The translations under genes were made by a program, and so were the position numbers. A DNA stretch of 39,820 bases from a virus (Duplodnaviria; Caudoviricetes): IMG/VR virus record IMGVR_UViG_3300048886_000193, positions 1 to 39,820 of that record, one strand, 5' to 3'. Below, piece after piece: positions 7,217 to 39,189 of the stretch (positions are counted from its first letter, which is position 1; every line of letters starts with the position of its first letter). Under the pieces are notes generated by a model. The model saw only the letters and a program-made list of their open reading frames with translations, was not told where the DNA came from and did not search any database.

Positions 7217-10200
7217 CTACCTGACAGGCTCTCGTAAGTAGTCTTGGATACTCTCACCACGGGCGCGTAGCTTCATGTAAATGTCGTTGGCTACGTCCTG
7301 AGTGATTATCTTTTTACTAGCGAGGTCTGTCAGGTAGACCTTTACTTGTGCCGGAGACCTACCTTGCATCTCTCTAATAATTACATTAGACCTCACGCTG
7401 ACAGGCGAATTCTTCAATCTCATCTCATCCGGCTCAAGACCCAACGCCTGTTCACGCAACCTTCGTATAATCAAATCATTCAGCAGCTTACTGGCATTGT
7501 TCTTGGGCGGCTGTATGTGCCTCACCTTATCCTGCAAGGACATCCCCTCTGTCATTTCCATGAACTCATCCACAGCCCTTCGCCTTATCAATCTCTCGGC
7601 AGCTTCCTGAGGCTGTTCATCATTCAGTATCTTATCCAAGTCCGTCTCTTCCAAGAATGTACTTCTGGCTAGTCTGGAGATAAGGCGGGTGGATGCTATT
7701 GCCCTTCCCATGCCACCTTCACCGACATCCTTGGGCGGAAGGAACTGCGTTATACCACCAGCCGTTAAGGTCTCGACAAGGTGCTTAATCCGCAGCGGGT
7801 CTAGTGCTGTTGTTGCGTTATGCAGCATCTTGTAGATGTCCGGAGTGGTGGCAAAGTATCTGTGTTCAGCGGGAGCCTTCTCGTAGGACGGCGGAACGAT
7901 TGGTTTGTGGCGGTAGAAGTTCCTGTTGGCAAGTATCTCCGGCAGCACCTTAGCGGCTGGGTTCATGCTGGACATTATGCTTTCCGCAGCCATCATCCCT
8001 TCCCCTTCAAGAACTCCCTCGACATTAACGGGCATAGTTGACTCGACCCAATAGCTGACCATCTCACCAACTGCATCTGGGTCTTTCTCGTACAGCCAGT
8101 CCAGCCCCTTCTCCAGTGTGTAAGAGAATAGACCAATGGATTCCCTGCGAGGTATGCGTATATAGTCTGCAACCATCTTGCCCTCTATGTAGGGATGCTT
8201 AAACTTCTCTCCCAGAGGTATATGGATGTAATGCTTCTTGTCCCTCTCGCTCAGTTCATCGTAGTCCTCCTCGCGATCCTTGTCCCTGCGATTCATAGAC
8301 CAAGCCATCATGGTAGGCAGGGCAGCGAAGGATGAAAGTTTCAGTGCCGTGGTGAGGGCTAGTTTCCTGTCCTGACCGTCCTTGCCGAACATCTTGAACA
8401 GTCTAGTCATGTCCCTCTCTACGCCCTGAACTCTGGCATTGAAGAACATAAAGAGGACATTAAGTGCCTCGTGCTCCGTGATTTTACCCTTCCGTATGAA
8501 GTCAGGTGAGCCAGCGTAGTTCCGAATCTCCACCGCAATGGCGTCCATCTTCTCTTCCAGCTCCTTCTGCAATGCAATCTTCTTGGGGCCAGCTTTGGCC
8601 TTGTCAACCTTATCAGCCAGCTCATCTATACCCTCAAATATCTTCATGCGTTGCAGCCCCACCATCTTGGCAGTTTGCTCCAGAACTTTTCCCGGTTGTG
8701 AGAGCTTTGCCGTGACCCATACCAGTGGATTTCTACGGCTCCCGCTATGTGCTGACAATGGGTCTTTAACTCCCGACACCTTCCCGAAGTATTCAGCTAT
8801 GGTTGATCCGGCTGCACCACTGTTAATAAATTCCTCATACAAGTCCTCGTACACTCCCGAACCAGTCTCTTTCTTTACCAGATTCCTGATTGAGTTGGGT
8901 GTAATGTTGGCCCACATGGACGCGGCAAAGGCTTTCCAGTATTGATGAGCCAGAACGATGGGGCCGAAGCCTTTATTCCTAGCCCTTAGCCCTGACTTGG
9001 ATGTGGTCAACAGGCGTATAGGATCAAGCAGGAAGAAGTTGCCAAGCTGGAAGAAGAAGTTGATTCCGGTAGCACCAAGCTTGAATATGTCTCCCAGTTG
9101 CTTGGCCACATTATAGGTATGCGACATACTGACAGGCTCGAAGTTGTTGAGAAGTTTGGCCACCTCCTTATCCAGCACGAGATACTTCACTTCACCGTTA
9201 TCATACATCTTGACCTTATCCCACCCCTTAGCTAAGGCAATTCTGTCAGCATCTTCAGGTGTGTCGGCCTTGAGGATAAAGTTTCCGTCCGGATCGAAGT
9301 CCATCCTGAAGTCGTCCAGCTTCCTCATGTAGACGTTACGGTCAGCCCTGAGTTGGTTGTAGTATAGCTTGAACCGTCCGGCATCCATCGGCGGTAGAAT
9401 CTTGAATGACTCAGCCTTGACTCCCTCGATGAACGCACCGAATGTATCCTCAGGGTTACGCTCAAAGTATTTAAGGACATAGAAGGGAACGTAGTAATCA
9501 GTGGAGGATTGAATCCTGTTGTATGTCTGAGGTGATATTACTCCGGCTTCGAGCTGGTCAAACAGGGAGGCTTGCATATGCTCGTTGTACTTCTCAGTTG
9601 CCTCTATGATCTTACCCTCAAACAGTATTCCATTGTGGGAGTCCCTTAGGGGTTTACCTGCGTCATCCACACCCTTCCATCGTAGCATCTCAGGATCATT
9701 TACCTCGTCCTTCAGCTCGTTCATTGCATCCATAGCGGCCTCTATGTGGGTGACATTCTCAAACCCTGCAACTTTCTTTGACTTAACAAGAAGGGACACA
9801 AGCTCTATCCTCTCCTCCTCCGTAAGCCCACCATCCTTCCTAGTGTCATCCATCTTATCCAGCAACTCTCGCAGTCTCTTTACATTGGTTGACTTGGCGT
9901 CACTGATTAAGCGATCCTTCGTCCTGAGTATTACGGATGCAGTGTTGAAGGTTTCCATTATCTCACTGCTCTGGCCGATGATTGACGTTATGTCGTCCTC
10001 CAGCTTCTGAGTCCTACGGTCAGCCTTCACCGTGCTGCCAGCCTGTAGCTCATTCATCTCACCTAGAGACAGCCTTGTCTTGCCAGCGATGTTGTTGACC
10101 TTGAATACCATCCTCTGAAACACATCTAGGAGGGCAGACTTGCTTACAAAATTCTCCTTGAACTTCTCATACAGTGTCATCCCAGCCCTTACTTCGCCCT

Positions 10201-13200
10201 TATTTCTCTCAGGTGCGCGGTGGGACTCCTTGAATGTGTCCAAGTTTACGAGTGGGTCTTTATCACTGACATCCAGTCTGGTATCACCCTCAGGTCTCTG
10301 TGCTAGTGCGAGATCAGATTCAGGGTAGGTGATCTCAAATAGATTGCCAGCATTGCGCGATAATTTTTTCTTCCATAGATTCTCTCTAGCTTGGCGTCCG
10401 GCTGGAACCGTATGCGGCATTTCTCTAAAACTAGGGGTTCCCTCCCCCCTCATCAGGTAAGTCCCAGCAGGTAGGGAGTCATAAAAGGCTCTGGTGAGTT
10501 TGCTAACTTCAGTATCAGGGCGGTGGGCCTCTGCTGGAAGTTCCATTATCTTCTGAGCGTCATCCATTACCTGCTCAAGAATTGTCATTTCCTTTTCGTT
10601 AAGGTTTAGTATGTCTGCCACCAACTTAAGGAGTGCCTCCCATACGCTTTGCTCTCCATATGGCAGCATCTTTGCCTCCTCATTAGGCAGTGGTCTAAGG
10701 GAGCTTACCAATGTGGAATCAAGTATCTCTCTGAATTCAGGATTGGAGAATGCCTCGGCAATGAATTCGTCAATGCTCGTTAGCCCATACCCCAATCCCG
10801 CAGGGTCAGCATTCACAAGACTCTCTGTAAGGTACACAAGTCCCGACGGTTGCTGCTCCGGAGGGCGATCCCTGATGCTGTTTATGACGGCCCTCCTAAG
10901 GTATTCGATGTTTGCTACCGCTTGCTCTGCTGTGGTTAGTTTGGTTTTCTTCGCCATGCGTACAAACAGCTCGTTCATACTGAGATCATCGCTCCGCTCA
11001 TGTGCCCAGAATGCTGGTGAGTCGGTTTTAACTTTGTCGATGGCGCGGGCCGTAGTTCCATGAGCTATTTCGTGAAGGTATATAGAGGCGTCCGTTGATG
11101 CCTGATGGCGAGATGTGATGTGAATGAAATCATCCGAAAGTCTGTAGAAGCCAAGGTGTTTCTTTCTCCTACTATCGTCTGACTTCCTGTGACGTATGGG
11201 GATAGGACTTTTGCTGTCCAGTCTAGTGCTCCTAAGCAGTTTCTTGGCCAACGCCACCACTTCCTCAGAACCTTTATCTATGATGATCTCCAATGCTTCG
11301 CGGGAATTTTTGGCTTTTTCAAGTTCAGGAATGTGCCCCAGCATACCTCTTCTTTCCGGCCCCATGATGTCTTCCCTCAACCCGTCAAACCAATCAGACC
11401 GCTCCTCATCAGTCATAACCGAGCCGTCAATGTTAACCCGCGTAGTCTCATCAAACTCAAAGACCTCGCTCGGCTTCATCAGGATGTTCTCAGTGTATTC
11501 AAGTACGTCTGGCATCTGCCTTATGGTTATCTTCTTAGTGCCGCGCTTCCCTCTGTAAGTCACATGGGTCAGGTCATATCCACCCCTAGTCTTCTCGTCT
11601 ATTGCCCAAGCGTTGAACGTCAGAATCTCTTCCAGCAGTGAACCGTCAGCAGCCTTGAGTCCGATAGCCCTTCTAATAGCCTCATATATTTCAGCAAGCA
11701 ATCCCGTCCAGCCTGATGTTACCTGCTTACCCTTGGTTCCCTTGATGCTGTTCAGGAATGATCTGGCCTCGTCGTTGAACATGGAGTGGGCCATGAACTC
11801 GTGATTGTTTGACAGGAAGTACGGGTCGATAAACTTGAAGGCGTCACCCCGTTTTCTGAATGCCCTCAATGCCCTGTTCCTTATGCGAGTAACCTCATCG
11901 TTGAACCTAGTATCGCGCACTAGCTTATCCGATGTAAGAGCGTGAAGATGTTCCTCAAGCAAGACCTTAAATGCCAAGAAGTTGTTCCCGCCCATTGCCG
12001 TTGGGTCAACTATGATCTGGTTATTAACATAGTCGTAGAACCCTCTCGGTGCTAACCTTGGGCCATCCTCGGATAACTGGGCTAGGAAAACCTGAGTGTC
12101 TGTTCTGTCGGATAGCTCCATTAAGGGGCGGAACCTATCTGCCCATCTCTTCTCTGAGGGGTTAAGGTCTGAGTAAAGCCTGTCGAATGCCTCGTAGAGA
12201 CCCATGTTGCCCTGCTTGTGGGACATCAACGGCTCTGTAAGGTCTGTGAGTTGAGTCTCCTGCTCAGGTGCTTGGGCAAATACTCCTGCTTGTTGTGCCG
12301 CTTCAGCAAATTCCTCCCTAGTCGAGAAGCCTTCCCTGTTCATCGTTAGGGTTTCATTGAAAGCAGATATTGTGTCGCGCATCAACTTTGAAGTAAACTT
12401 CTTACTGCCAACGAACTCCTTCTGCATCTTGTAGACGCCGCCCTTTTCTTCATTTGAGCTGTAAGTCCATCCGTCTACATCTGGGTTGAGTGGGAACTGC
12501 TTGCCCTCGCTTACCTCTGCATATAACTTGCGGATTTCCTGTATTGTCTCCCTCATCCTGAAGTTACGCAACTCACCGCTCTGAGCAGCAGCCATAGTGT
12601 CCAGCTTGAGTTGAAGCTTGCTTACAGTTTTTTCGTGTACCTTTTTCTTCGCCGTTAAAATACTGATTAGCTCCTTGAGGTTAGCTCTCTCCACTACAGG
12701 CTCCTCAAGTGCTGATAACTGCTTAATCAATCCTGCAACATCCCTGTCTGCGGCATCCTTCTCATCCGCATCCATTGCTCCCTGCCTCCTCTTTCTGGCC
12801 TCCCACAACTTTTCATTAACCTCTCTGTGAAGTTTTACACTCTCCGGCTTTGGCCTTGTTCTTCCCGTAGGCAACTCAACAACCTGATCTACGTCCTTGG
12901 GGAATACCCCTTCAGCTATCAGCATCTCCTTGTGGGCTTCGAGAAGGGAACTGTGGATGATCTTTGTCTTCGCGGTCATCGGCTCCACCCCAGCCTCGAC
13001 ATCCAATCTGGCTTCCCCTGCAAGAGCCTCAGGTGTAAAAAGTTTTGAAGCCTCTATTTGTGAGTGGGTCGCCTCAATGCGGGATATGATCTGGCTGTAC
13101 TTAGTGCCGTTTATCCTGTCAAGCTTCTTGGTTATCTTCTCTATCTGCTTCTTTGTCTTCCTTAGAGTGTTCCTCCACTGAGGTTCGTATTTCCTTTTAA

Positions 13201-16200
13201 TCGTTCCCGCCTCAAGAGCATGAGACCATTCAGGTATGATTATGTCAGTTATTATCCGCCTAGTTAGCTCGCTCTTCGTGCCCACCATCTCAGGGGTAAC
13301 GTCCACGTTCTCAGTGCCTATCATCCTTGTGTAAAGTGCCCTAGTGAATCGTTCTATAAATTTCCTTACCTTTACTTTGAGGTCTTCCCTCTCCGCAATG
13401 GATGATGGTGTATCACGGGATGAGTCAATGGCTTGGGCGTAAAGATTATCAACCGCTTCAGACACAACATCTAGGGTCTCCTTGTTAATGACCTCAACCG
13501 CATCATCAATCTGAACATCGGTCATGGCCATTTCCCCCGGCTCAGATGTCTCTACGCTGTGCCTGAACCTCCACCCACCGCCTCTCAGCTTCGACTTTAT
13601 GGAGGGGTCTTTCTGTGACTCAAGTATTTCCGACTCCTTCTGCGAACGGCGCATAATGTCGTAGAACTTATTCCTTAGGATAGCTTTTCCGGCAAACTTA
13701 CCTACTACCGATACAAAGTCCGGCCCTGATGGGTCTCTACCGTGCTCCCTGTGAAGATCAGCTTTCTTTCTTGCTTCATTCAGGGTGTGCAGAAACGCCT
13801 CCCATGCCGTATCAAGTGCCTTAGTCCCGCCAGCAGGGTGGCTCCCTATAAATGCAGCACCCAGTTTCGCAGCAATGCGCCTCCACGATTCAATGGGGCT
13901 GACTACTTCCTTGCGCTCCTTGGCTTGGTTGTAGACATCAACACCTTCTGGGTCTGCAAACATCCCGTAGTCATCCATTGAAAGCTCATCGGTCAGGGTA
14001 TTGTCAAAGAGAGGGTGCTGGTAGTCAATGGGTGCTCCCTCAATCCCGACTTCTTCCCTCAAGTCAGCTATTGCCTCATCAAGTTCCCCTATCTTATCCT
14101 GTAAAATCTTTGTATCCTTAGCCTCGGAACCCTTCACCCTCTTAGTGACAAGCTCCTTCCTTCTTGCTTCCAGTTTAGCCCTCTGAGCCTCAAGTTTTCT
14201 AAGGACTGCGGATGGCCCCTGCTCGGCAACTTCAACTGTGCTAATCTCCTCCGGTATGCCACTGAATATAGGCCCAGAGACAGGCTTGACACCAGCGGCC
14301 TTGTCCTTCTGAGCTGCCAGTAATTCCATTAACGCACTATCTGCCACCTCAACATCACTAAAATCAACTCCAGTCAGCTTCTCCAGCTCTTTGGTTATTA
14401 CTTTTCTCTGCTCCTTGGTGAGTGCCTCCTTGGCCATCCGGTCACCTTCGGGGTCTATACCAGTCTTTCCTTTCCTCCAGTCCAGATGCTTGGGAACTTC
14501 AGCCGCTTTGCCTTTAGCTTCTCCGACAACATCAAATTCCGGCTCCACCATCGCGCCAGTCTTCCACTCCTCAAGGGTCTTTGGCTCTTTAGGTTTAAAT
14601 CTGTCGGGGTCTGCATCCCTGATTACTTTCTGTTCAGCCTCACTCTTGGAGTCCCATGCTGCTTCAATCTTGGCGTTAACCCTGTCCACGCTCTCTAGGT
14701 AGGTTGCGTACAGTTCCTCTTCAGACTTAGGTTCCACGAATAGATCGCCCTGCAATGGAGACTCCGGCCTCTTGGCAAATGCTTCTCCACCCTCTTCGAC
14801 TGTCCCAGCACGACGCCGCTCAACCGATCTAAGGGTAACGGCGAACGCATTGATGAGTCTGGTTTCCTTTGCGGATAGATCAAGATTGTTGACCACATCC
14901 ATGAGTGACTCAGAGCCGCTTTTCCCACCATCGTGTGCGGCAAACTCCTCCTCGGCAACACCAAGTATCTCCTCTATCTTGTTGGCGGTTATGTTTTCCT
15001 TCAGTCCCTCGGTGTTCAGATACCGTAAATTATCCATTCCCTGAATAGTTCCGAACCACTCATCATCAATCCCTATGCCCTTGAGAACATTGACAGCATT
15101 CTGAGCCTCTCCCGCACCAGCCTTCTTCTCTCCCATTTCCTCCAGTTGTGCATCGGTGAGCAATTCGCCAGCCAGTGTGGGTGCTTTTGCCCTGTCCAGC
15201 GGCCTGATTACATTGCCCTCATCTGTAAGCCTTGCAGTTTCCTCAGGAGTAATTCCCTCTATGACCCTAACACCGCCGTCGCCTAAGGGCTTACCAAGCA
15301 TCTCCGTCTTAGCCCCCTCTTCGGTTTCTTTGCTTAGGTAGGTGTTTATCCTGTAGTCATTCTCGCCAACTATATGCAAGCCTCCAGCCTGTCTCTCACC
15401 CTTCTGTGTTCCCCTCTGTGCTAGACCTTCTGCGGTGGGGGCTTCGGGGCTGAGTGCTTCTTCATTGGCCCTGTTTATAGCCTTGAGTATAGACGCCTTA
15501 TCCTTGTCCGGCTTGCTTGCCCCCTCCTCGTTCTGAGGCCGCTTGCCAGTGTCGTTCATCGACTTGTAAAATTCATCTATCCGCCGCTTGTACTCTTCGC
15601 CCTGTTCCGGAGTGAGTCTCTTTTCAGCTACCTGTTGATCGACATCCATCTTCTGACCATCGGCTGGAACCTTATTCTTGAATCCTACTTCTATGCGGTC
15701 ATTGAGTGCCTTGGCGTGATCCGGAGACATATCCCTAGTAAGGTGAGCGGCTGTCATCTCGAACGGAGCCATACCCAACTCAGCAATGCCCTCAAGGAAT
15801 ACACCCTTCCAGTCATCTATCTTGCCATCCGCTAAAAGCTGTCCTGTAGCATCTCCACCCATGCCCATAGTCGCCTGAAATCCAAATGGGACAACCATAG
15901 GAGCGGCCTTCGCGGAACCCAGCAATCCCTGTTTAGCAGCCTGATTCAGCAGACCCGTCGCGGGTAGTCTCCTCGCCATTGTCCCAGCACCAGCAGCTAT
16001 TTTCGTGGCCGTAGTTGCAGCACGACCAGCCAAGCCAACAGATAGAGCATCAAAGACGCCAACAGGCAGACCATACTTGACAGCACTAGAGCGAGCTTTC
16101 TTAATTGTTTTAGGATCGTTGATGGCCTCATAAAGACGGTTAGGACTGCCCATCACTTCCGGCCCAACAGTGTTCTCCAAGACCTCGATGAACTTACCAG

Positions 16201-16879
16201 CGGCACTTAGGTTGTAGGAAGTCTTGCCCATTCCGGCAGCACCGCCCCATAGAGCACCACCACCTGCTGTGACACCTGCCAATGGGCCTCCGACAGCACC
16301 GAGAGCAGCACCAGTTCCAGCACCAGCAGCAGCACCTCCAGTAATCTTAGCCCAGCCATGATGCAGCAGTCCGGCCATTGACTCTACCGTGACCTCACCG
16401 ATGATCGCAGGAGTTTCCTTTATGCCCCAGAATTCACTCCAACTTTCCCTGAACCCGTTAGCTGACTGAAACTCCTTGAAGTGGTCGGATGTCTCAAGCT
16501 CCTGCATCTCCTTCCTGATACGGGCTATCTCAGCTACATCATCTCTCCCAAATTCAGTCTCAGGAGTTAGGGTGTCCATGACGATTTTGGCCATCTTGGA
16601 CTGTAGGACGCCGCGTCTTATCGGGTCTTTGAGGTATGTGCTCCCAAACGATCTTTCAGTAGCAGCCTTTTCCTGTACCGCCCTTACGGTGTGCCTGTCT
16701 ACGGGAGCCTTTGACCTGTCAACCTCAATCTCAGCCTCCCTCTTGTGCTTGGCAAGCTCTGGAAATCGGGCTTCGTAGGATGGGTAAGCTGCTAGAATAC
16801 CAAGAGCAACCTCCCTGTCAGTCCTTCCTTCTGTCTGATCGGGGAACTTCTTACGCCACTCATCTATAATATATTCCAT
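7217..16879 (-). CDS. Giant polyvalent virion/ejection protein (3220 aa) with two zincin-like domains and a C-terminal LPD38-like domain
   Basis: Gly/Ala hydrophobic N-terminal block; EEHLH...HEFMAH and HEIAH...DEFIAEAFSNPEF; C-terminal YIRIPR...NPAAK..EILANRNFY..PIV; last gene of the virion operon. Confidence 0.8.
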   Translation of the reverse strand: MEYIIDEWRKKFPDQTEGRTDREVALGILAAYPSYEARFPELAKHKREAEIEVDRSKAPVDRHTVRAVQEKAATERSFGSTYLKDPIRRGVLQSKMAKIVMDTLTPETEFGRDDVAEIARIRKEMQELETSDHFKEFQSANGFRESWSEFWGIKETPAIIGEVTVESMAGLLHHGWAKITGGAAAGAGTGAALGAVGGPLAGVTAGGGALWGGAAGMGKTSYNLSAAGKFIEVLENTVGPEVMGSPNRLYEAINDPKTIKKARSSAVKYGLPVGVFDALSVGLAGRAATTATKIAAGAGTMARRLPATGLLNQAAKQGLLGSAKAAPMVVPFGFQATMGMGGDATGQLLADGKIDDWKGVFLEGIAELGMAPFEMTAAHLTRDMSPDHAKALNDRIEVGFKNKVPADGQKMDVDQQVAEKRLTPEQGEEYKRRIDEFYKSMNDTGKRPQNEEGASKPDKDKASILKAINRANEEALSPEAPTAEGLAQRGTQKGERQAGGLHIVGENDYRINTYLSKETEEGAKTEMLGKPLGDGGVRVIEGITPEETARLTDEGNVIRPLDRAKAPTLAGELLTDAQLEEMGEKKAGAGEAQNAVNVLKGIGIDDEWFGTIQGMDNLRYLNTEGLKENITANKIEEILGVAEEEFAAHDGGKSGSESLMDVVNNLDLSAKETRLINAFAVTLRSVERRRAGTVEEGGEAFAKRPESPLQGDLFVEPKSEEELYATYLESVDRVNAKIEAAWDSKSEAEQKVIRDADPDRFKPKEPKTLEEWKTGAMVEPEFDVVGEAKGKAAEVPKHLDWRKGKTGIDPEGDRMAKEALTKEQRKVITKELEKLTGVDFSDVEVADSALMELLAAQKDKAAGVKPVSGPIFSGIPEEISTVEVAEQGPSAVLRKLEAQRAKLEARRKELVTKRVKGSEAKDTKILQDKIGELDEAIADLREEVGIEGAPIDYQHPLFDNTLTDELSMDDYGMFADPEGVDVYNQAKERKEVVSPIESWRRIAAKLGAAFIGSHPAGGTKALDTAWEAFLHTLNEARKKADLHREHGRDPSGPDFVSVVGKFAGKAILRNKFYDIMRRSQKESEILESQKDPSIKSKLRGGGWRFRHSVETSEPGEMAMTDVQIDDAVEVINKETLDVVSEAVDNLYAQAIDSSRDTPSSIAEREDLKVKVRKFIERFTRALYTRMIGTENVDVTPEMVGTKSELTRRIITDIIIPEWSHALEAGTIKRKYEPQWRNTLRKTKKQIEKITKKLDRINGTKYSQIISRIEATHSQIEASKLFTPEALAGEARLDVEAGVEPMTAKTKIIHSSLLEAHKEMLIAEGVFPKDVDQVVELPTGRTRPKPESVKLHREVNEKLWEARKRRQGAMDADEKDAADRDVAGLIKQLSALEEPVVERANLKELISILTAKKKVHEKTVSKLQLKLDTMAAAQSGELRNFRMRETIQEIRKLYAEVSEGKQFPLNPDVDGWTYSSNEEKGGVYKMQKEFVGSKKFTSKLMRDTISAFNETLTMNREGFSTREEFAEAAQQAGVFAQAPEQETQLTDLTEPLMSHKQGNMGLYEAFDRLYSDLNPSEKRWADRFRPLMELSDRTDTQVFLAQLSEDGPRLAPRGFYDYVNNQIIVDPTAMGGNNFLAFKVLLEEHLHALTSDKLVRDTRFNDEVTRIRNRALRAFRKRGDAFKFIDPYFLSNNHEFMAHSMFNDEARSFLNSIKGTKGKQVTSGWTGLLAEIYEAIRRAIGLKAADGSLLEEILTFNAWAIDEKTRGGYDLTHVTYRGKRGTKKITIRQMPDVLEYTENILMKPSEVFEFDETTRVNIDGSVMTDEERSDWFDGLREDIMGPERRGMLGHIPELEKAKNSREALEIIIDKGSEEVVALAKKLLRSTRLDSKSPIPIRHRKSDDSRRKKHLGFYRLSDDFIHITSRHQASTDASIYLHEIAHGTTARAIDKVKTDSPAFWAHERSDDLSMNELFVRMAKKTKLTTAEQAVANIEYLRRAVINSIRDRPPEQQPSGLVYLTESLVNADPAGLGYGLTSIDEFIAEAFSNPEFREILDSTLVSSLRPLPNEEAKMLPYGEQSVWEALLKLVADILNLNEKEMTILEQVMDDAQKIMELPAEAHRPDTEVSKLTRAFYDSLPAGTYLMRGEGTPSFREMPHTVPAGRQARENLWKKKLSRNAGNLFEITYPESDLALAQRPEGDTRLDVSDKDPLVNLDTFKESHRAPERNKGEVRAGMTLYEKFKENFVSKSALLDVFQRMVFKVNNIAGKTRLSLGEMNELQAGSTVKADRRTQKLEDDITSIIGQSSEIMETFNTASVILRTKDRLISDAKSTNVKRLRELLDKMDDTRKDGGLTEEERIELVSLLVKSKKVAGFENVTHIEAAMDAMNELKDEVNDPEMLRWKGVDDAGKPLRDSHNGILFEGKIIEATEKYNEHMQASLFDQLEAGVISPQTYNRIQSSTDYYVPFYVLKYFERNPEDTFGAFIEGVKAESFKILPPMDAGRFKLYYNQLRADRNVYMRKLDDFRMDFDPDGNFILKADTPEDADRIALAKGWDKVKMYDNGEVKYLVLDKEVAKLLNNFEPVSMSHTYNVAKQLGDIFKLGATGINFFFQLGNFFLLDPIRLLTTSKSGLRARNKGFGPIVLAHQYWKAFAASMWANITPNSIRNLVKKETGSGVYEDLYEEFINSGAAGSTIAEYFGKVSGVKDPLSAHSGSRRNPLVWVTAKLSQPGKVLEQTAKMVGLQRMKIFEGIDELADKVDKAKAGPKKIALQKELEEKMDAIAVEIRNYAGSPDFIRKGKITEHEALNVLFMFFNARVQGVERDMTRLFKMFGKDGQDRKLALTTALKLSSFAALPTMMAWSMNRRDKDREEDYDELSERDKKHYIHIPLGEKFKHPYIEGKMVADYIRIPRRESIGLFSYTLEKGLDWLYEKDPDAVGEMVSYWVESTMPVNVEGVLEGEGMMAAESIMSSMNPAAKVLPEILANRNFYRHKPIVPPSYEKAPAEHRYFATTPDIYKMLHNATTALDPLRIKHLVETLTAGGITQFLPPKDVGEGGMGRAIASTRLISRLARSTFLEETDLDKILNDEQPQEAAERLIRRRAVDEFMEMTEGMSLQDKVRHIQPPKNNASKLLNDLIIRRLREQALGLEPDEMRLKNSPVSVRSNVIIREMQGRSPAQVKVYLTDLASKKIITQDVANDIYMKLRARGESIQDYLREPVR

Positions 16880-35264: not shown

Positions 35265-35687
35265 CTATAGACGTTTGGGGGTGGGGTGGGTAGGGGTGGT
35301 CTCTTTGATTTTCTCTGGGGCCGATGCCAATGCTCTGAGCAATTCAGGTGATACCGTGCCCGTTTGGGTTTGTTTGATCTCCTGCCGTTCAGTTTTATTC
35401 CATTGAGCGTGTCGCCGTTCAAGGATTGCGATTGCGAGCTTGCCATCACGGGCTGCATTGTCGGTGGCGATCTGAAGTAGTCGGTGTTCGTGATCTGCAC
35501 TTGCCTTGTCCAAAGCTATTTTCAACGCGGGATACATACGCACCCATTTCTCGACCTGAGGCAGTGACAACTCCACGAACTTCGAGGCGGATACTAAACT
35601 CAGGCCATCTCGGATCGCATCGGTGAGGGCTTCGATCTTTTCGGCGGGAAGCGGTGGGAGCTTGGTGGGTTGTGTGATTTTCGGCAT
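35265..35687 (-). CDS. terS: Terminase small subunit
   Basis: HTH-like N-terminus and AILERR motif; directly upstream of terL. Confidence 0.75.
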   Translation of the reverse strand: MPKITQPTKLPPLPAEKIEALTDAIRDGLSLVSASKFVELSLPQVEKWVRMYPALKIALDKASADHEHRLLQIATDNAARDGKLAIAILERRHAQWNKTERQEIKQTQTGTVSPELLRALASAPEKIKETTPTHPTPKRL

Positions 35688-35724
35688 AACTTCAGATTAT
35701 TTTCTTATTTTTTCCCCGTTCGTA

Positions 35725-35753
35725 TTTATAGGTGAGGACAGAGAGCGAGTCAA
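35725..35753 (-). promoter_or_regulatory. Sigma70-type promoter TTGACT-N17-TATAAA for the packaging/late operon
   Basis: Minus-strand hexamers at 35753-35748 and 35730-35725, 37 nt upstream of terS. Confidence 0.7.
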
Positions 35754-35761
35754 TCGTTTTC

Positions 35762-36018
35762 CCTCGGCACAGTCCGGTTAACCAATCGGGCGGGGCGAAA
35801 GCAGCCTCCACGCATTGCGGGTCGAATCAATGACCATACTGAAGCGTGGCAGCACGTAGGTTTCCGTGAAAAATCTTGTTATGAAACCGGATTGCCTGTT
35901 AGCAGGTGGGCGCGTAATAGCGTTCGGCTTAGGCAGTTGGCAAGGGTGAATCAATAAACCTAGGGCGCAAGCCCGTTTGCCGATACTGCCGAGGCCATCC
36001 ACTAGAGCCATCATGAGC
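35762..36018 (+). ncRNA. Structured RNA, 5' domain (no family recognised)
   Basis: Closing stem CCTCGGCA/TGCCGAGG with at least six internal stems, many G-U pairs and a GCAA tetraloop. Confidence 0.7.
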
Positions 36019-36039
36019 ACAACCAAAAGGTAAAATATC

Positions 36040-36435
36040 ATGACGGAACTATTCACATTCGAAGAAAAAGTAGAAACCACTGAAACGGAAACAGTTAGCC
36101 AAGACAAGTTGACAGGGCCGCAAGTGACGGTCGTTTGCGAGAAGATCAGGAACTCAGATGATTACGATTCTGGGTTACTGCTCGCGATGGAAGTCACTGG
36201 CGACGTAACCAAGGCGCAAGCTATTAGATTAGCGACAGCCTTAGAGAAGTTACAGGAACGGCTCGAAAAGGAAGCGGCCACCAAGGCTGAGAATGAGGCA
36301 AAGCTGGCGGCATGGAATGAGCGCAAAAAGGAAGTGACTCGGTTCCATGTTAAGTTCGGCACACCTCAGGAGTATTCGGAGGAATTCCTAAACAGAATGA
36401 CAACGGATCAAGTGTTAAGCAGTAAATTAGTCTAA
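36040..36435 (+). CDS. Hypothetical protein (131 aa) enclosed by a 26-bp RNA stem
   Basis: AAAGG RBS; coiled-coil segment. Confidence 0.8.
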   Translation: MTELFTFEEKVETTETETVSQDKLTGPQVTVVCEKIRNSDDYDSGLLLAMEVTGDVTKAQAIRLATALEKLQERLEKEAATKAENEAKLAAWNERKKEVTRFHVKFGTPQEYSEEFLNRMTTDQVLSSKLV

Positions 36436-36442
36436 TCAATCC

Positions 36443-36563
36443 GCTCATGGTGGTTCTAGTGGGTGGCCAACGGTCACAAAACAATTTGCCAGTTGAAGGG
36501 TAAGAATAACTCAAGCCCTATGGCAAAGCTGCGCTGGATAGCGTGGAAACATAGCAAGTAGAG
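36443..36563 (+). ncRNA. Structured RNA, middle domain
   Basis: 3' arm of the 26-bp stem; TTTGCCA/TGGCAAA, AGGG/CCCT and GCGCT/AGCGT stems. Confidence 0.6.
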
Positions 36564-36573
36564 GGTACATAAA

Positions 36574-37371
36574 ATGGATACCAAAGTAAATGAAACCCCT
36601 AGTGTAGATGTAGAACCAGTGAAAACTGTTGGTCTATATGAGGAAGTCAAGAAGGACAGCAATGACGAGTGGTCGGGTTCAACGTGGACTGGATCGCTCG
36701 CTGCATTAAAGCCGGATCAGTTGGATCAATTATTTGATACCGACAACATCCACGCCGTAATGCAGGAAGTTATCAGGTTCGCATATGACGGCACGCCCGT
36801 TGATGAAAAGCTGATGGAATCAAATAATGCTGGCTGGATTCTGAATCCTACGGGTGCACAGGTCGAGGCCTTAAATATTGGGTCATTTGATCCGAAGGGC
36901 TTGAAGAGAGCCGCTAAGGCAATAGACTTGGAACACCGCAAGATCACCAAGGACAAGGACGGCAATGTCTCTGTCTGGCGTGAAGCTAAGGACTCAGACG
37001 GCAAGCCCATTATTGTCTGGAACTCTAAGACAAGTGAGACAGAGAATAAAATGGAATGGAGCAAGGACGGCAAGACGTTATTTTCCGCCAAGGATATGAC
37101 AAATTGCTATAACTTCGTGATCCATGCCAATGGGATGTTGAACTTGGAGCCTCAGTATGATGTTGAGCAGAGGAAGTTCGTCGCAGAAGGTGGACGTACC
37201 GTAACGCTCAAGAAGAACAAGAAGTCCATGACTCGTACACTTCAGAAGCCCACCAAGGGTAAGAAGAAGACTACGATCAAGGGCTACGAGTTCACAGCAG
37301 AAGAGCTGGAGAATCTAGTCGCCAATGCACAATCGCGTGGTGAGCTAGGGGAACAGCAAGATAATCAGTAA
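36574..37371 (+). CDS. Hypothetical protein (265 aa), acidic N-terminus and Lys-rich C-terminal part
   Basis: GAGG RBS; long ORF. Confidence 0.85.
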   Translation: MDTKVNETPSVDVEPVKTVGLYEEVKKDSNDEWSGSTWTGSLAALKPDQLDQLFDTDNIHAVMQEVIRFAYDGTPVDEKLMESNNAGWILNPTGAQVEALNIGSFDPKGLKRAAKAIDLEHRKITKDKDGNVSVWREAKDSDGKPIIVWNSKTSETENKMEWSKDGKTLFSAKDMTNCYNFVIHANGMLNLEPQYDVEQRKFVAEGGRTVTLKKNKKSMTRTLQKPTKGKKKTTIKGYEFTAEELENLVANAQSRGELGEQQDNQ

Positions 37372-37372
37372 A

Positions 37373-37545
37373 TTCTACGTGCTGGTTAAGTCATGATAGC
37401 GGGTGCAGATAAATACCTACCTGTATCCGTACAACAGCGGCGTCAGTAATGGCGATCCGCCGAGTAGGTACGCAGCCAGTAAAATGGTTGTAACGGGGTA
37501 ACGTGCCGGTTAGGGAACTACGCCCTAGCTAACGGAGTGATAGAC
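37373..37545 (+). ncRNA. Structured RNA, 3' domain with pseudoknot
   Basis: 10-bp stem 37399-37408/37421-37430 whose loop TACCTAC pairs with GTAGGTA at 37464-37470; three further hairpins. Confidence 0.7.
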
Positions 37546-37583
37546 GGGGAGTGGCTGAGAGAAATCTTGGCTGCTCCCCTTTT
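37546..37583 (+). terminator. Rho-independent terminator
   Basis: 15-bp stem with G-U pairs, GAAA loop, followed by TTTT. Confidence 0.8.
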
Positions 37584-37612
37584 CTAGTGTTCAAATTAAA
37601 TCAAGGAGCGGA

Positions 37613-37810
37613 ATGATAAACCAAAAACATAAACTAATTGGGGTGAGGAAGCTCAGTGACGGCAAGAACTACTTCGTCTCTGCTGACTCTGTGGGCAAAA
37701 TTTATCTCAAGAGAACCAAACTAAAGACGTGGGAACAGCTATACCCACAACACTATAAAACTAAAGAAGAATGGGAGGAAATAGAGAATGAAACCAATAA
37801 AAACAACTGA
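37613..37810 (+). CDS. Hypothetical protein (65 aa)
   Basis: AAGGAG RBS. Confidence 0.75.
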   Translation: MINQKHKLIGVRKLSDGKNYFVSADSVGKIYLKRTKLKTWEQLYPQHYKTKEEWEEIENETNKNN

Positions 37811-38688: not shown

Positions 38689-39189
38689 CCTGTTTCTCAA
38701 TACAAACTCTCCAGCTTTCTCCCAACATCTCCACAATACTCACGAGAGAATAGAATAGAATAGAATAGAGTAGAATAGAATAGATTATATACTATACACT
38801 CACAAGGATTAAGAAGCAGAGGAAGATGATCCATACCGCTATACCTATAAGCACAGATAGGGCATACTCGCAGCTATCCTTTAGGTTCATCGGGATTTCT
38901 TTAACTTCCAAGCAACAACACCCAAGGAGGCAGCGATAGCAACTTTACACAGAGTGTCTAACACGGCCATGCCCAAACCCATCCAGTTAATAAGTTCATA
39001 CAACATACTTGTTAGACGGTACAACCTGTGAATAAGTTAAACAAATCTTACACCTCCGTCGAAGCCCGCAACCTCCTTTCAAAACATAAGCAGCGGGTAT
39101 TCTAATTCGGCGGGGGATATTTTAACGATCAGCAATGGGTGACAAAATCTGTTGTCGATCACAAACAAGGAAAAACGGAGGAATAAACT
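38689..39189. other. Candidate replication origin region
   Basis: 500-bp gap with no ORF of 60 aa or more, containing the phased repeats and a consensus DnaA box (TTATTCACA, minus strand, 39027-39035). Confidence 0.5.
38708..38788. repeat. Phased CTCC x3 + ATACTCAC + (TAGAN)-type pentamer x8 element, copy B
   Basis: TCTCC at 38708, 38718, 38728; ACTCA at 38738; pentamers at 38746-38785. Confidence 0.9.

What the first reader, a model, noticed from the sequence alone, without database searches (positions are those of the whole stretch)
35850..37384. Long-range pairing across 1.5 kb links the 5' and 3' RNA domains
Seen: CAGCACGTAGG (35850-35860), mostly an unpaired junction in the 5' domain, is complementary to TCTACGTGCTG (37374-37384; 10 Watson-Crick plus 1 G-U), just after the second ORF's stop. 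The same 3' segment can alternatively pair 11 of 12 with TAGCAAGTAGAG (36552-36563), which overlaps that ORF's RBS. Inference: mutually exclusive pairings that could switch translation of the 265-aa protein.
Basis: partly seen in the sequence, partly recalled or inferred. Interest (0 to 1): 0.7.

Follow-up and report, generated by a model that had tools for sequence, protein, structure and literature searches.

The report
Phage early RNA loops out genes
The likely first early message of this phage and its close relatives carries matching sequence stretches, conserved by compensating changes, that are predicted to fold it into one large RNA with two genes looped out; the flagged 1.5-kb pairing is one such contact and would likely act as a switch that damps translation once the message is complete.

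Summary
Helix A (35850-35860 x 37374-37384) is present as described. A match this long is common by chance (56% of shuffles), but here it is kept with compensatory changes in 12 of 22 homologous loci (4 of 8 lineages), always starting 1-7 nt after the ORF2 stop.

The 5' arm is not an unpaired junction: it is stem S1 of a predicted pseudoknot (4/4 pairs in 22 of 22 loci), and S1 is helix A's real exclusive rival. The alternative pairing with 36552-36563 is broken in the closest relatives and absent elsewhere. That site instead pairs with the pseudoknot loop (helix B, one-per-lineage p=0.0002).

A 26-bp covarying stem encloses ORF1, and in some lineages the 3' UTR also covers ORF1's start codon. 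No Rfam family matches the RNA, and ORF2 has no family or fold match.

Best reading (0.42): a cis-acting structured early mRNA whose 3' end docks on the 5' domain and damps initiation, in the manner of the MS2 Min Jou interaction. Expression, direction of effect and function are untested.

The parts
35265..35687 (-). terminase small subunit, divergent from the unit (context)
   Evidence: PHROG 4102, E 3.7e-12
35721..35733 (+). conserved AT-rich block just upstream of the RNA domain; probable promoter element, untested
   Evidence: found at 120-143 nt from the GGTTTC anchor in 10 of 10 loci examined; the sigma-70 scan found no promoter here
35734..36039 (+). structured 5' RNA domain, about 305 nt (hairpins P1, P2, P3 35808-13 x 35844-49, P5 35894-907, P6, P7 with conserved AATCAATAA loop 35948-58)
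   Evidence: fold z -4.02 on +, +0.24 on -; 17 of 25 consensus pairs with compensatory change in 15 sequences
35850..35860 (+).
35853..35868 (+). pseudoknot stem S1 (CACG 35853-56 x CGTG 35865-68), exclusive with helix A
   Evidence: 4/4 pairs in 22 of 22 loci, 6 different left arms
35859..35888 (+). pseudoknot stem S2 (GGTTTC 35859-64 x GAAACC 35883-88)
   Evidence: 5-6 pair duplex in most loci, only one-sided changes, weak in L055/L069/L059/L063
35875..35883 (+). 5' arm of helix B, in pseudoknot loop 3
35993..36018 (+). 5' arm of 26-bp stem P8 enclosing ORF1
   Evidence: covariation; longest uninterrupted stem (arms within 1.5 kb) on either strand of the window, next is 16 bp
36036..36044 (+). 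5' arm of helix D, covering the ORF1 start codon
   Evidence: (I9)
36040..36435 (+). ORF1, 131 aa, unknown, fast-evolving
   Evidence: synonymous/non-synonymous codons 16/6 and 18/4 against L048 and L060; no Pfam match
36443..36468 (+). 3' arm of stem P8, starting 8 nt after the ORF1 stop
36550..36558 (+). 3' arm of helix B, ending 15 nt before the ORF2 ATG and abutting the SD-like AGAGGG 36560-65
36574..37371 (+). ORF2, 265 aa, closed family of unknown function
   Evidence: 15 clusters at 50% identity; no Pfam/PHROG match; AlphaFold2 pLDDT 81.5, best fold Z 4.3
37374..37384 (+). 3' arm of helix A, 3 nt after the ORF2 stop
37390..37398 (+). 3' arm of helix D
37399..37544 (+). dispensable structured insert of about 146 nt, absent from L060
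37546..37585 (+). intrinsic terminator-like hairpin ending the unit
   Evidence: a terminator-like hairpin follows ORF2 in the homologues whose sequence reaches that far (by eye)

Best explanation
The region is likely one early phage transcript whose non-coding parts are predicted to fold into a single RNA scaffold with ORF1 and ORF2 looped out, and the flagged helix A would likely be an accessory switch that closes the finished transcript and damps translation. Proposed steps: (1) the 5' domain folds a pseudoknot S1/S2 whose loop 3 pairs just upstream of the ORF2 ribosome-binding site (helix B), brought close by the 26-bp stem that loops out ORF1 (covariation shown; folding in vivo inferred). 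(2) When RNA polymerase passes the ORF2 stop, the new 3' segment displaces S1, which in nested folding models raises helix B; in some lineages the neighbouring segment also covers the ORF1 AUG (helix D) (complementarity shown, effect inferred). (3) Because the A arm starts 1-7 nt after the stop, a terminating ribosome would strip it off, coupling the switch to completed ORF2 translation (inferred from general knowledge of the ribosome footprint). The net result would be an early burst followed by a translation-sensitive damped state.
For: Helix A is in 12 of 22 loci at a fixed place after the stop. Its 5' arm, the local S1 arm and the distal arm differ together between lineages. S1 has 4/4 pairs in 22 of 22 loci. 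Helix B cognate against swapped partners: one-per-lineage p 0.0002; P8 p 0.0002; D median p 0.014. The B 3' arm ends 7-20 nt before the ORF2 ATG in all 22, whereas P8 leaves 16-30 nt free before the ORF1 ATG and starts 8-17 nt after its stop. With ORF bodies left out, adding the 3' UTR raises expected B pairs in 4 of the 8 A-bearing loci folded: L060 0.4 to 6.6, L057 0.6 to 8.7, L070 0.2 to 8.6, L078 2.9 to 6.2. The signal is strand-specific, and 39 of 260 P8-region pairs are G-U, pointing to RNA. In B. subtilis, pairing to the RBS from hundreds of nt away inhibits translation (PMC12697547, abstract and Discussion read).
Against: Helix A is missing in 10 of 22 loci (4 of 8 lineages, including L063, sister to the window's clade), and its all-lineage permutation p is only 0.068 median, 0.19 worst. 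In one search B does not rise with A in the other four A-bearing loci (window 8.0 to 5.9, L050 6.9 to 5.7, L008 and L073 about unchanged), and it rises without A in L055 (0.5 to 6.8). These models cannot represent the pseudoknot, so if S2 and B coexist, A may not alter B at all. Helix D got 0 expected pairs in all folds (it crosses P8) and has a stable local rival hairpin in L057. The whole-transcript MFE does not contain B. Many unpaired or one-sidedly paired positions are invariant (GCGG, CCGAAG, GTTTC, AATCAATAA-like loop), more than simple RBS occlusion needs. Neither transcription start nor direction of regulation is shown.
Confidence: 0.42

Rival explanations
1. The scaffold is a non-coding RNA with its own function (for example a particle with the ORF2 protein or a host-factor decoy). 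The ORFs are inserts in its loops, ORF1 would be cut out by RNase III at the 26-bp stem, and helix A only staples the 3' end on.
For: A large multi-helix domain with invariant loop motifs and a pseudoknot; P8 is a long, near-perfect duplex with a conserved base sequence in all 22 loci; ORF1 is almost free to vary while the scaffold is kept; RNA and ORF2 co-occur and both are confined to one phage clade.
Against: Both ORFs have open A-rich initiation regions, and ORF1 shows purifying selection. Three of the long-range arms sit at start or stop codons, which a free-standing RNA would not need. No ORF-less copy was found among the fetched loci.
Confidence: 0.28
2. Closed-loop enhancement: A, S2 and B stack so that the ORF2 stop lies next to the ORF2 start, as P8 does for ORF1, letting terminating ribosomes re-initiate on the same gene and raising output.
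For: A and B are nested and coexist in the folds. P8 brings the ORF1 stop within about 30 unpaired nt of its start in the window.
Against: The A arm lies inside the expected terminating-ribosome footprint. B reaches to 7-10 nt before the ATG in 7 of 22 loci, which would block rather than help. D covers an AUG.
Confidence: 0.12
3. The pairings serve only mRNA stability and processing (5' hairpin, RNase III-type stem, tucked-in 3' UTR), with no switching; S1 and A are redundant ways to keep the same bases paired.
For: Lineages without A keep S1, B and P8; T7 early RNA is processed by RNase III between genes (passage in PMC6121014).
Against: Keeping two exclusive partners matched to one changing arm is a cost that plain stability does not explain.
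Confidence: 0.11
4. One reading: the 3' segment toggles between the 5' domain and the ORF2 RBS region 36552-36563.
For: 11 of 12 pairs in the window; 3.4 of 12 expected pairs when ORF bodies are left out.
Against: Broken by two substitutions in L048 and L060; no signal across lineages, p 0.16; probability 0.00 in the whole-transcript fold. It is explained as a by-product of the resemblance between the B 3' arm plus SD and the A 5' arm.
Confidence: 0.04
5. The structures act in single-stranded DNA (packaging start next to terS, or replication).
For: The element sits directly beside terS.
Against: Folding signal only on +, frequent G-U pairs, cUUCGg-type loops in homologues, arms registered to start and stop codons.
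Confidence: 0.03

Closest known systems
MS2 Min Jou long-distance interaction (translational coupling of replicase to coat; passages of PMC11339067)
   Same: A short (7-nt in MS2, 7-10 nt here) long-distance helix next to an initiation region, opened by ribosome traffic.
   Different: This is a dsDNA-phage transcript. The distal arms lie in non-coding domains (a pseudoknot loop; the 3' UTR), not inside an upstream ORF. It has several nested and crossing contacts.
Long-range RBS pairing in bacterial mRNAs (PMC12697547; abstract and Discussion read)
   Same: Pairing over hundreds of nt that can inhibit initiation; the paper notes few natural cases are reported.
   Different: There the anti-SD-like sequences are mostly selected against. 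Here pairing is selected for, targets the flank of the SD or the AUG, and is built on a 300-nt scaffold.
RNase III processing stems (T7 early R1.1; rRNA intervening sequences; passages of PMC6121014)
   Same: A long duplex between or around genes of a likely early phage unit.
   Different: P8 is a long-range stem enclosing a whole ORF, not a local hairpin. Cleavage is untested and the host enzyme unknown.
GOLLD and ROOL large phage RNAs; HEARO RNA with ORF (passages of PMC12286853)
   Same: Large, pseudoknotted, phage-encoded structure (GOLLD, ROOL); an RNA tied to an ORF (HEARO).
   Different: No Rfam match, no tRNA nearby, two ORFs inside the transcript, and ORF2 has no HNH or other Pfam match.
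Flavivirus 5'-3' cyclisation (PMC6765113; search listing and title only)
   Same: 5'-3' base pairing that, by the paper's title, inhibits new translation initiation.
   Different: That is a eukaryotic RNA-virus genome; this is a bacterial-type mRNA of 1.85 kb.

Membership tests
Any Rfam 15 family (incl. GOLLD, ROOL, HEARO, riboswitches, ribozymes, tmRNA) | covariance-model score at the gathering threshold | tested here: not met
   0 matches in the window; best E 1.6 in 35600-37700; 0 at E<=1 in 9 further loci, one of them unrelated; ARAGORN 0
Min Jou-type translational coupling | long-distance helix adjoining a downstream initiation region | tested here: met
   helix B covaries and ends 7-20 nt before the ORF2 ATG
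Min Jou-type translational coupling | distal arm lies inside an upstream translated ORF | tested here: not met
   B 5' arm is in the non-coding 5' domain; A and D 3' arms are in the 3' UTR
Min Jou-type translational coupling | ribosome passage opens the helix and changes downstream expression | not testable with these tools
   needs a reporter assay
RNase III processing stem | near-perfect duplex of about two helical turns (criterion from own knowledge) | tested here: met
   26 bp in the window; 20-27 expected pairs in the 14 loci folded
RNase III processing stem | cleavage in vivo or in vitro | not testable with these tools
   no RNA data
H-type pseudoknot | two interleaved stems, each supported by covariation | tested here: inconclusive
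   S1 covaries strongly; S2 has an invariant 5' strand and only one-sided changes, weak in 4 loci
Pistol ribozyme (topological resemblance recalled from memory) | Rfam model match and conserved catalytic junctions | tested here: not met
   no Rfam match; junction between loop-3 helix and S2 is 0-5 nt and not conserved
Intron-like RNA with maturase or homing-endonuclease ORF | ORF encodes an RT, LAGLIDADG, GIY-YIG or HNH protein | tested here: inconclusive
   no Pfam/PHROG match; fold searches without a clear match, which does not exclude a family

The most novel reading that the evidence does not exclude
A new class of phage 'scaffold mRNA': a folded RNA of about 450 nt, interrupted by two looped-out genes, that senses completion of its own transcription and of ORF2 translation by a 1.5-kb strand invasion of a pseudoknot, and that may persist as a multi-piece RNA-protein particle with the novel-fold ORF2 protein after RNase III removes ORF1.
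Probability: 0.22. Interest if true: 0.88.

Novelty: new variant of a known kind. Interest (0 to 1): 0.66.

Why it matters
Natural, conserved long-range pairings in bacterial-type mRNAs have rarely been reported (Discussion of PMC12697547). This unit offers four of them, with natural compensatory variants across eight lineages and natural losses of helix A as built-in controls. That makes it a compact test of whether a bacterial mRNA can use its own 3' end as a timer or translation sensor. The RNA domain matches no Rfam family, and ORF2 is a small closed protein family without a recognisable fold, so both may be new parts of early host takeover in a phage clade whose nearest named terminases are from Akkermansia phages (35-39% identity; host not established).

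Tried and rejected

Known RNA families: none. Pistol, HDV-like, hammerhead and twister resemblances were considered from memory and dropped, because the junction motifs are not present.

ORF2 function: no Pfam or PHROG match. Foldseek gave no E<=0.001 in PDB or BFVD, VIA-align best Z 4.3, ESM Atlas no usable hit. None of this shows a new fold.

Host: no ORF2 relative in GTDB genome contigs.

Expression: no RNA run was listed; this is no evidence either way.

Wider spread: the nhmmer profile found no convincing copy in loci with 52-63% terL identity, best E 1.5. A pattern scan gave 5 known loci and one chance hit, L107.

Prior description: six searches aimed at such an element or its analogues (listings only) showed no description of it. 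In Fremin et al. 2023 (PMC10690425), four short motifs and two sample numbers were not found in the 3 supplement files that could be searched. Files 1, 2 and 4 and mmc1-3, which probably hold the alignments, could not be read, so a prior listing there is not excluded.

Errors: the per-pair probabilities for B and S2 were read one base out of register and are not used. One search timed out and was replaced. A pairing of the conserved mid-region CCAT/CCGT motif with the 5' domain was considered by eye and dropped as inconsistent.

Full report
Context. The window is a 39,820-base virus record, 95% complete by CheckV. Virion genes lie on the minus strand (major head, portal, terL, terS). An Erf-like annealing protein and an exonuclease lie on the plus strand. 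The flagged region is the first plus-strand unit, divergent from terS: about 305 nt of non-coding sequence, ORF1 (36040-36435), a 138-nt linker, ORF2 (36574-37371), a 3' region and a terminator-like hairpin at 37546-37579. That it is one early transcript is inferred from this layout; no transcription start was shown, and the sigma-70 scan found no promoter. The nearest named terminases are from Akkermansia phages at 35-39%, a weak hint of a Verrucomicrobiota host.

Observation. Both pairings are in the sequence as written. A perfect 10-bp inverted repeat at least 200 nt apart arises in 56% of 500 shuffles of this unit, so the match is not remarkable by itself. The position-restricted figure is 3 of 2000, chosen after the fact. 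The nested partition function of the whole unit gives helix A 0.77-1.00 per pair and the alternative 0.00.

Homologues. TerL, and then an ORF2 alignment, gave related loci. I analysed 22: the window, L008 and 20 of L048-L080. The other 13 of L048-L080 were left out as duplicates, near-duplicates of loci already used, or fragments lacking the 5' domain or a whole ORF2. L081-L105 (45-residue matches, E about 5e-4) were not used. The 22 include near-copies and fall into 8 lineages with ORF2 identities of about 30-41% to the window outside its own clade. The domain was not found in loci with 52-63% terL identity.

Helix A is present in 12 of 22 loci (window, L060, L048; L057, L070, L076; L008; L050, L053, L056, L073, L078), starting 1-7 nt after the stop, at -15.7 to -21.7 kcal/mol. 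In 8 of these 12 no other window of the unit pairs better. The arms differ between lineages and the partner follows, for example CAGCACGTAGG with TCTACGTGCTG, GGGCGTAAGG with CCTTACGCCT, and GGCGGGTAGG with CCTACTCGCC. It is absent in 10 of 22 (L063; L055, L069, L059; L051, L049, L052, L054, L067; L075). The swap test gives p 0.0012 on 15 rows ignoring kinship, but only 0.068 (median) with one row per lineage. Read off the ORF2 tree, presence needs at least two gains, or one gain and two losses. Helix A is therefore real but accessory.

What the 5' arm normally does. Anchored on the invariant TTTC, the four bases after it pair with four bases 7-8 nt upstream in 22 of 22 loci, with six different left arms. 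On the MAFFT alignment all four pairs show two-sided changes. Four of 15 rows are unpaired there; these appear to be the rows that MAFFT set one column off, which pair 4/4. The loop GGTTTC is complementary to GAAACC 35883-88, which would make an H-type pseudoknot; this second stem has only one-sided changes and is weak in four loci. S1 uses the same bases as helix A, so S1 is the conserved exclusive partner.

What the RBS-proximal site does. 36550-36558 is complementary to 35875-35883 in pseudoknot loop 3 (helix B). A duplex of 7-10 pairs between these two regions is found in all 22 loci with lineage-specific sequences. It is weak in absolute terms (-7.5 to -12.4 kcal/mol; weakest relative to background in L078, L053, L050) but strongly cognate-specific (p 0.0002). 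It ends 7-20 nt before the ORF2 ATG.

Other long-range helices. P8, 26 bp, encloses ORF1 in all 22 loci (-45.5 to -61.6 kcal/mol for the duplex region, p 0.0002). It leaves the ORF1 initiation region free and begins 8-17 nt after the stop. Helix D pairs the 3' UTR with the ORF1 start codon in 8 of 22 loci (window clade, L057 clade, L063, L075; -10.9 to -23.1 kcal/mol; median p 0.014, worst 0.069). The L051 and L055/L059 lineages have neither A nor D. The 5' domain folds at z -4.02 on plus and +0.24 on minus, and 17 of 25 consensus pairs show compensatory change.

Mechanism. Folding the non-coding parts as separate strands, as a stand-in for ribosome-covered ORFs, A and B coexist. These models exclude pseudoknots and ignore loop entropy of the ORFs, so they only show feasibility. 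I commit to a cis-acting switch (0.42): the completed 3' end invades S1, reinforces occlusion next to the ORF2 SD and, where D exists, covers the ORF1 AUG, while ribosomes terminating at ORF2 reopen it. Covariation of S1, A, B, P8 and D is shown. Transcription, folding in vivo, direction of effect and ribosome coupling are inferred.

Comparison. It works most like the MS2 Min Jou interaction (passages) but fails that system's placement of the distal arm inside an upstream ORF. P8 resembles RNase III substrates such as T7 R1.1 (passage); cleavage is untested. It is not a member of any Rfam family. ORF2 has 15 clusters at 50% identity, all at E below 1e-56 and none weaker, with no family or fold match. 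Literature listings showed no description of this element, but the Fremin 2023 alignments could not be searched. Earlier scan notes on other genomes describe long stems enclosing early phage genes. These are unchecked leads suggesting that P8-type stems may be common; the pseudoknot with A, B and D contacts is the distinctive part here.

Verdict. Observation partly confirmed, interpretation partly supported with a different rival helix. The larger finding is an undescribed, covarying scaffold around two early genes. New variant of a known kind; interest 0.66.

Noticed in passing
window 37399-37544: Structured insert of about 146 nt in the 3' UTR, absent from L060 (ORF2 97% identical), flanked by a TGATAG repeat, with a possible pseudoknot (hairpin-loop TACCTAC and downstream GTAGGTA). 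No Rfam match; a pattern scan of viral contigs found only the contig of L001.
   Followed up: partly
L049, L051, L065 just after the ORF2 stop: A different structured insert of about 125 nt, closed by its own stem and absent from near-identical L052/L054/L067: the 3' UTR repeatedly gains small folded elements.
   Followed up: partly
L057 3' UTR: The terminator hairpin carries a long extra stem in its loop compared with L070/L076.
   Followed up: no
window 35721-35733: AT-rich block conserved in 10 of 10 loci examined, 24-32 nt from the terS start on the other strand; could be a shared promoter for both directions or a packaging-related site.
   Followed up: partly
window 36485-36548: Extra hairpins in the ORF1-ORF2 linker; a small GCGC/GCGT hairpin just before helix B recurs in L063, L008 and the L050 lineage.
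   Followed up: no
window 7217-16879 (-): A 3220-aa protein with only a short match to an unknown-function PHROG.
   Followed up: no
window 38727-38795: Short tandem GAATA-type repeats in a non-coding stretch.
   Followed up: no
L107: Chance pattern match in a contig that reads like an RNA-phage replicase gene; unrelated to this element (by eye).
   Followed up: no
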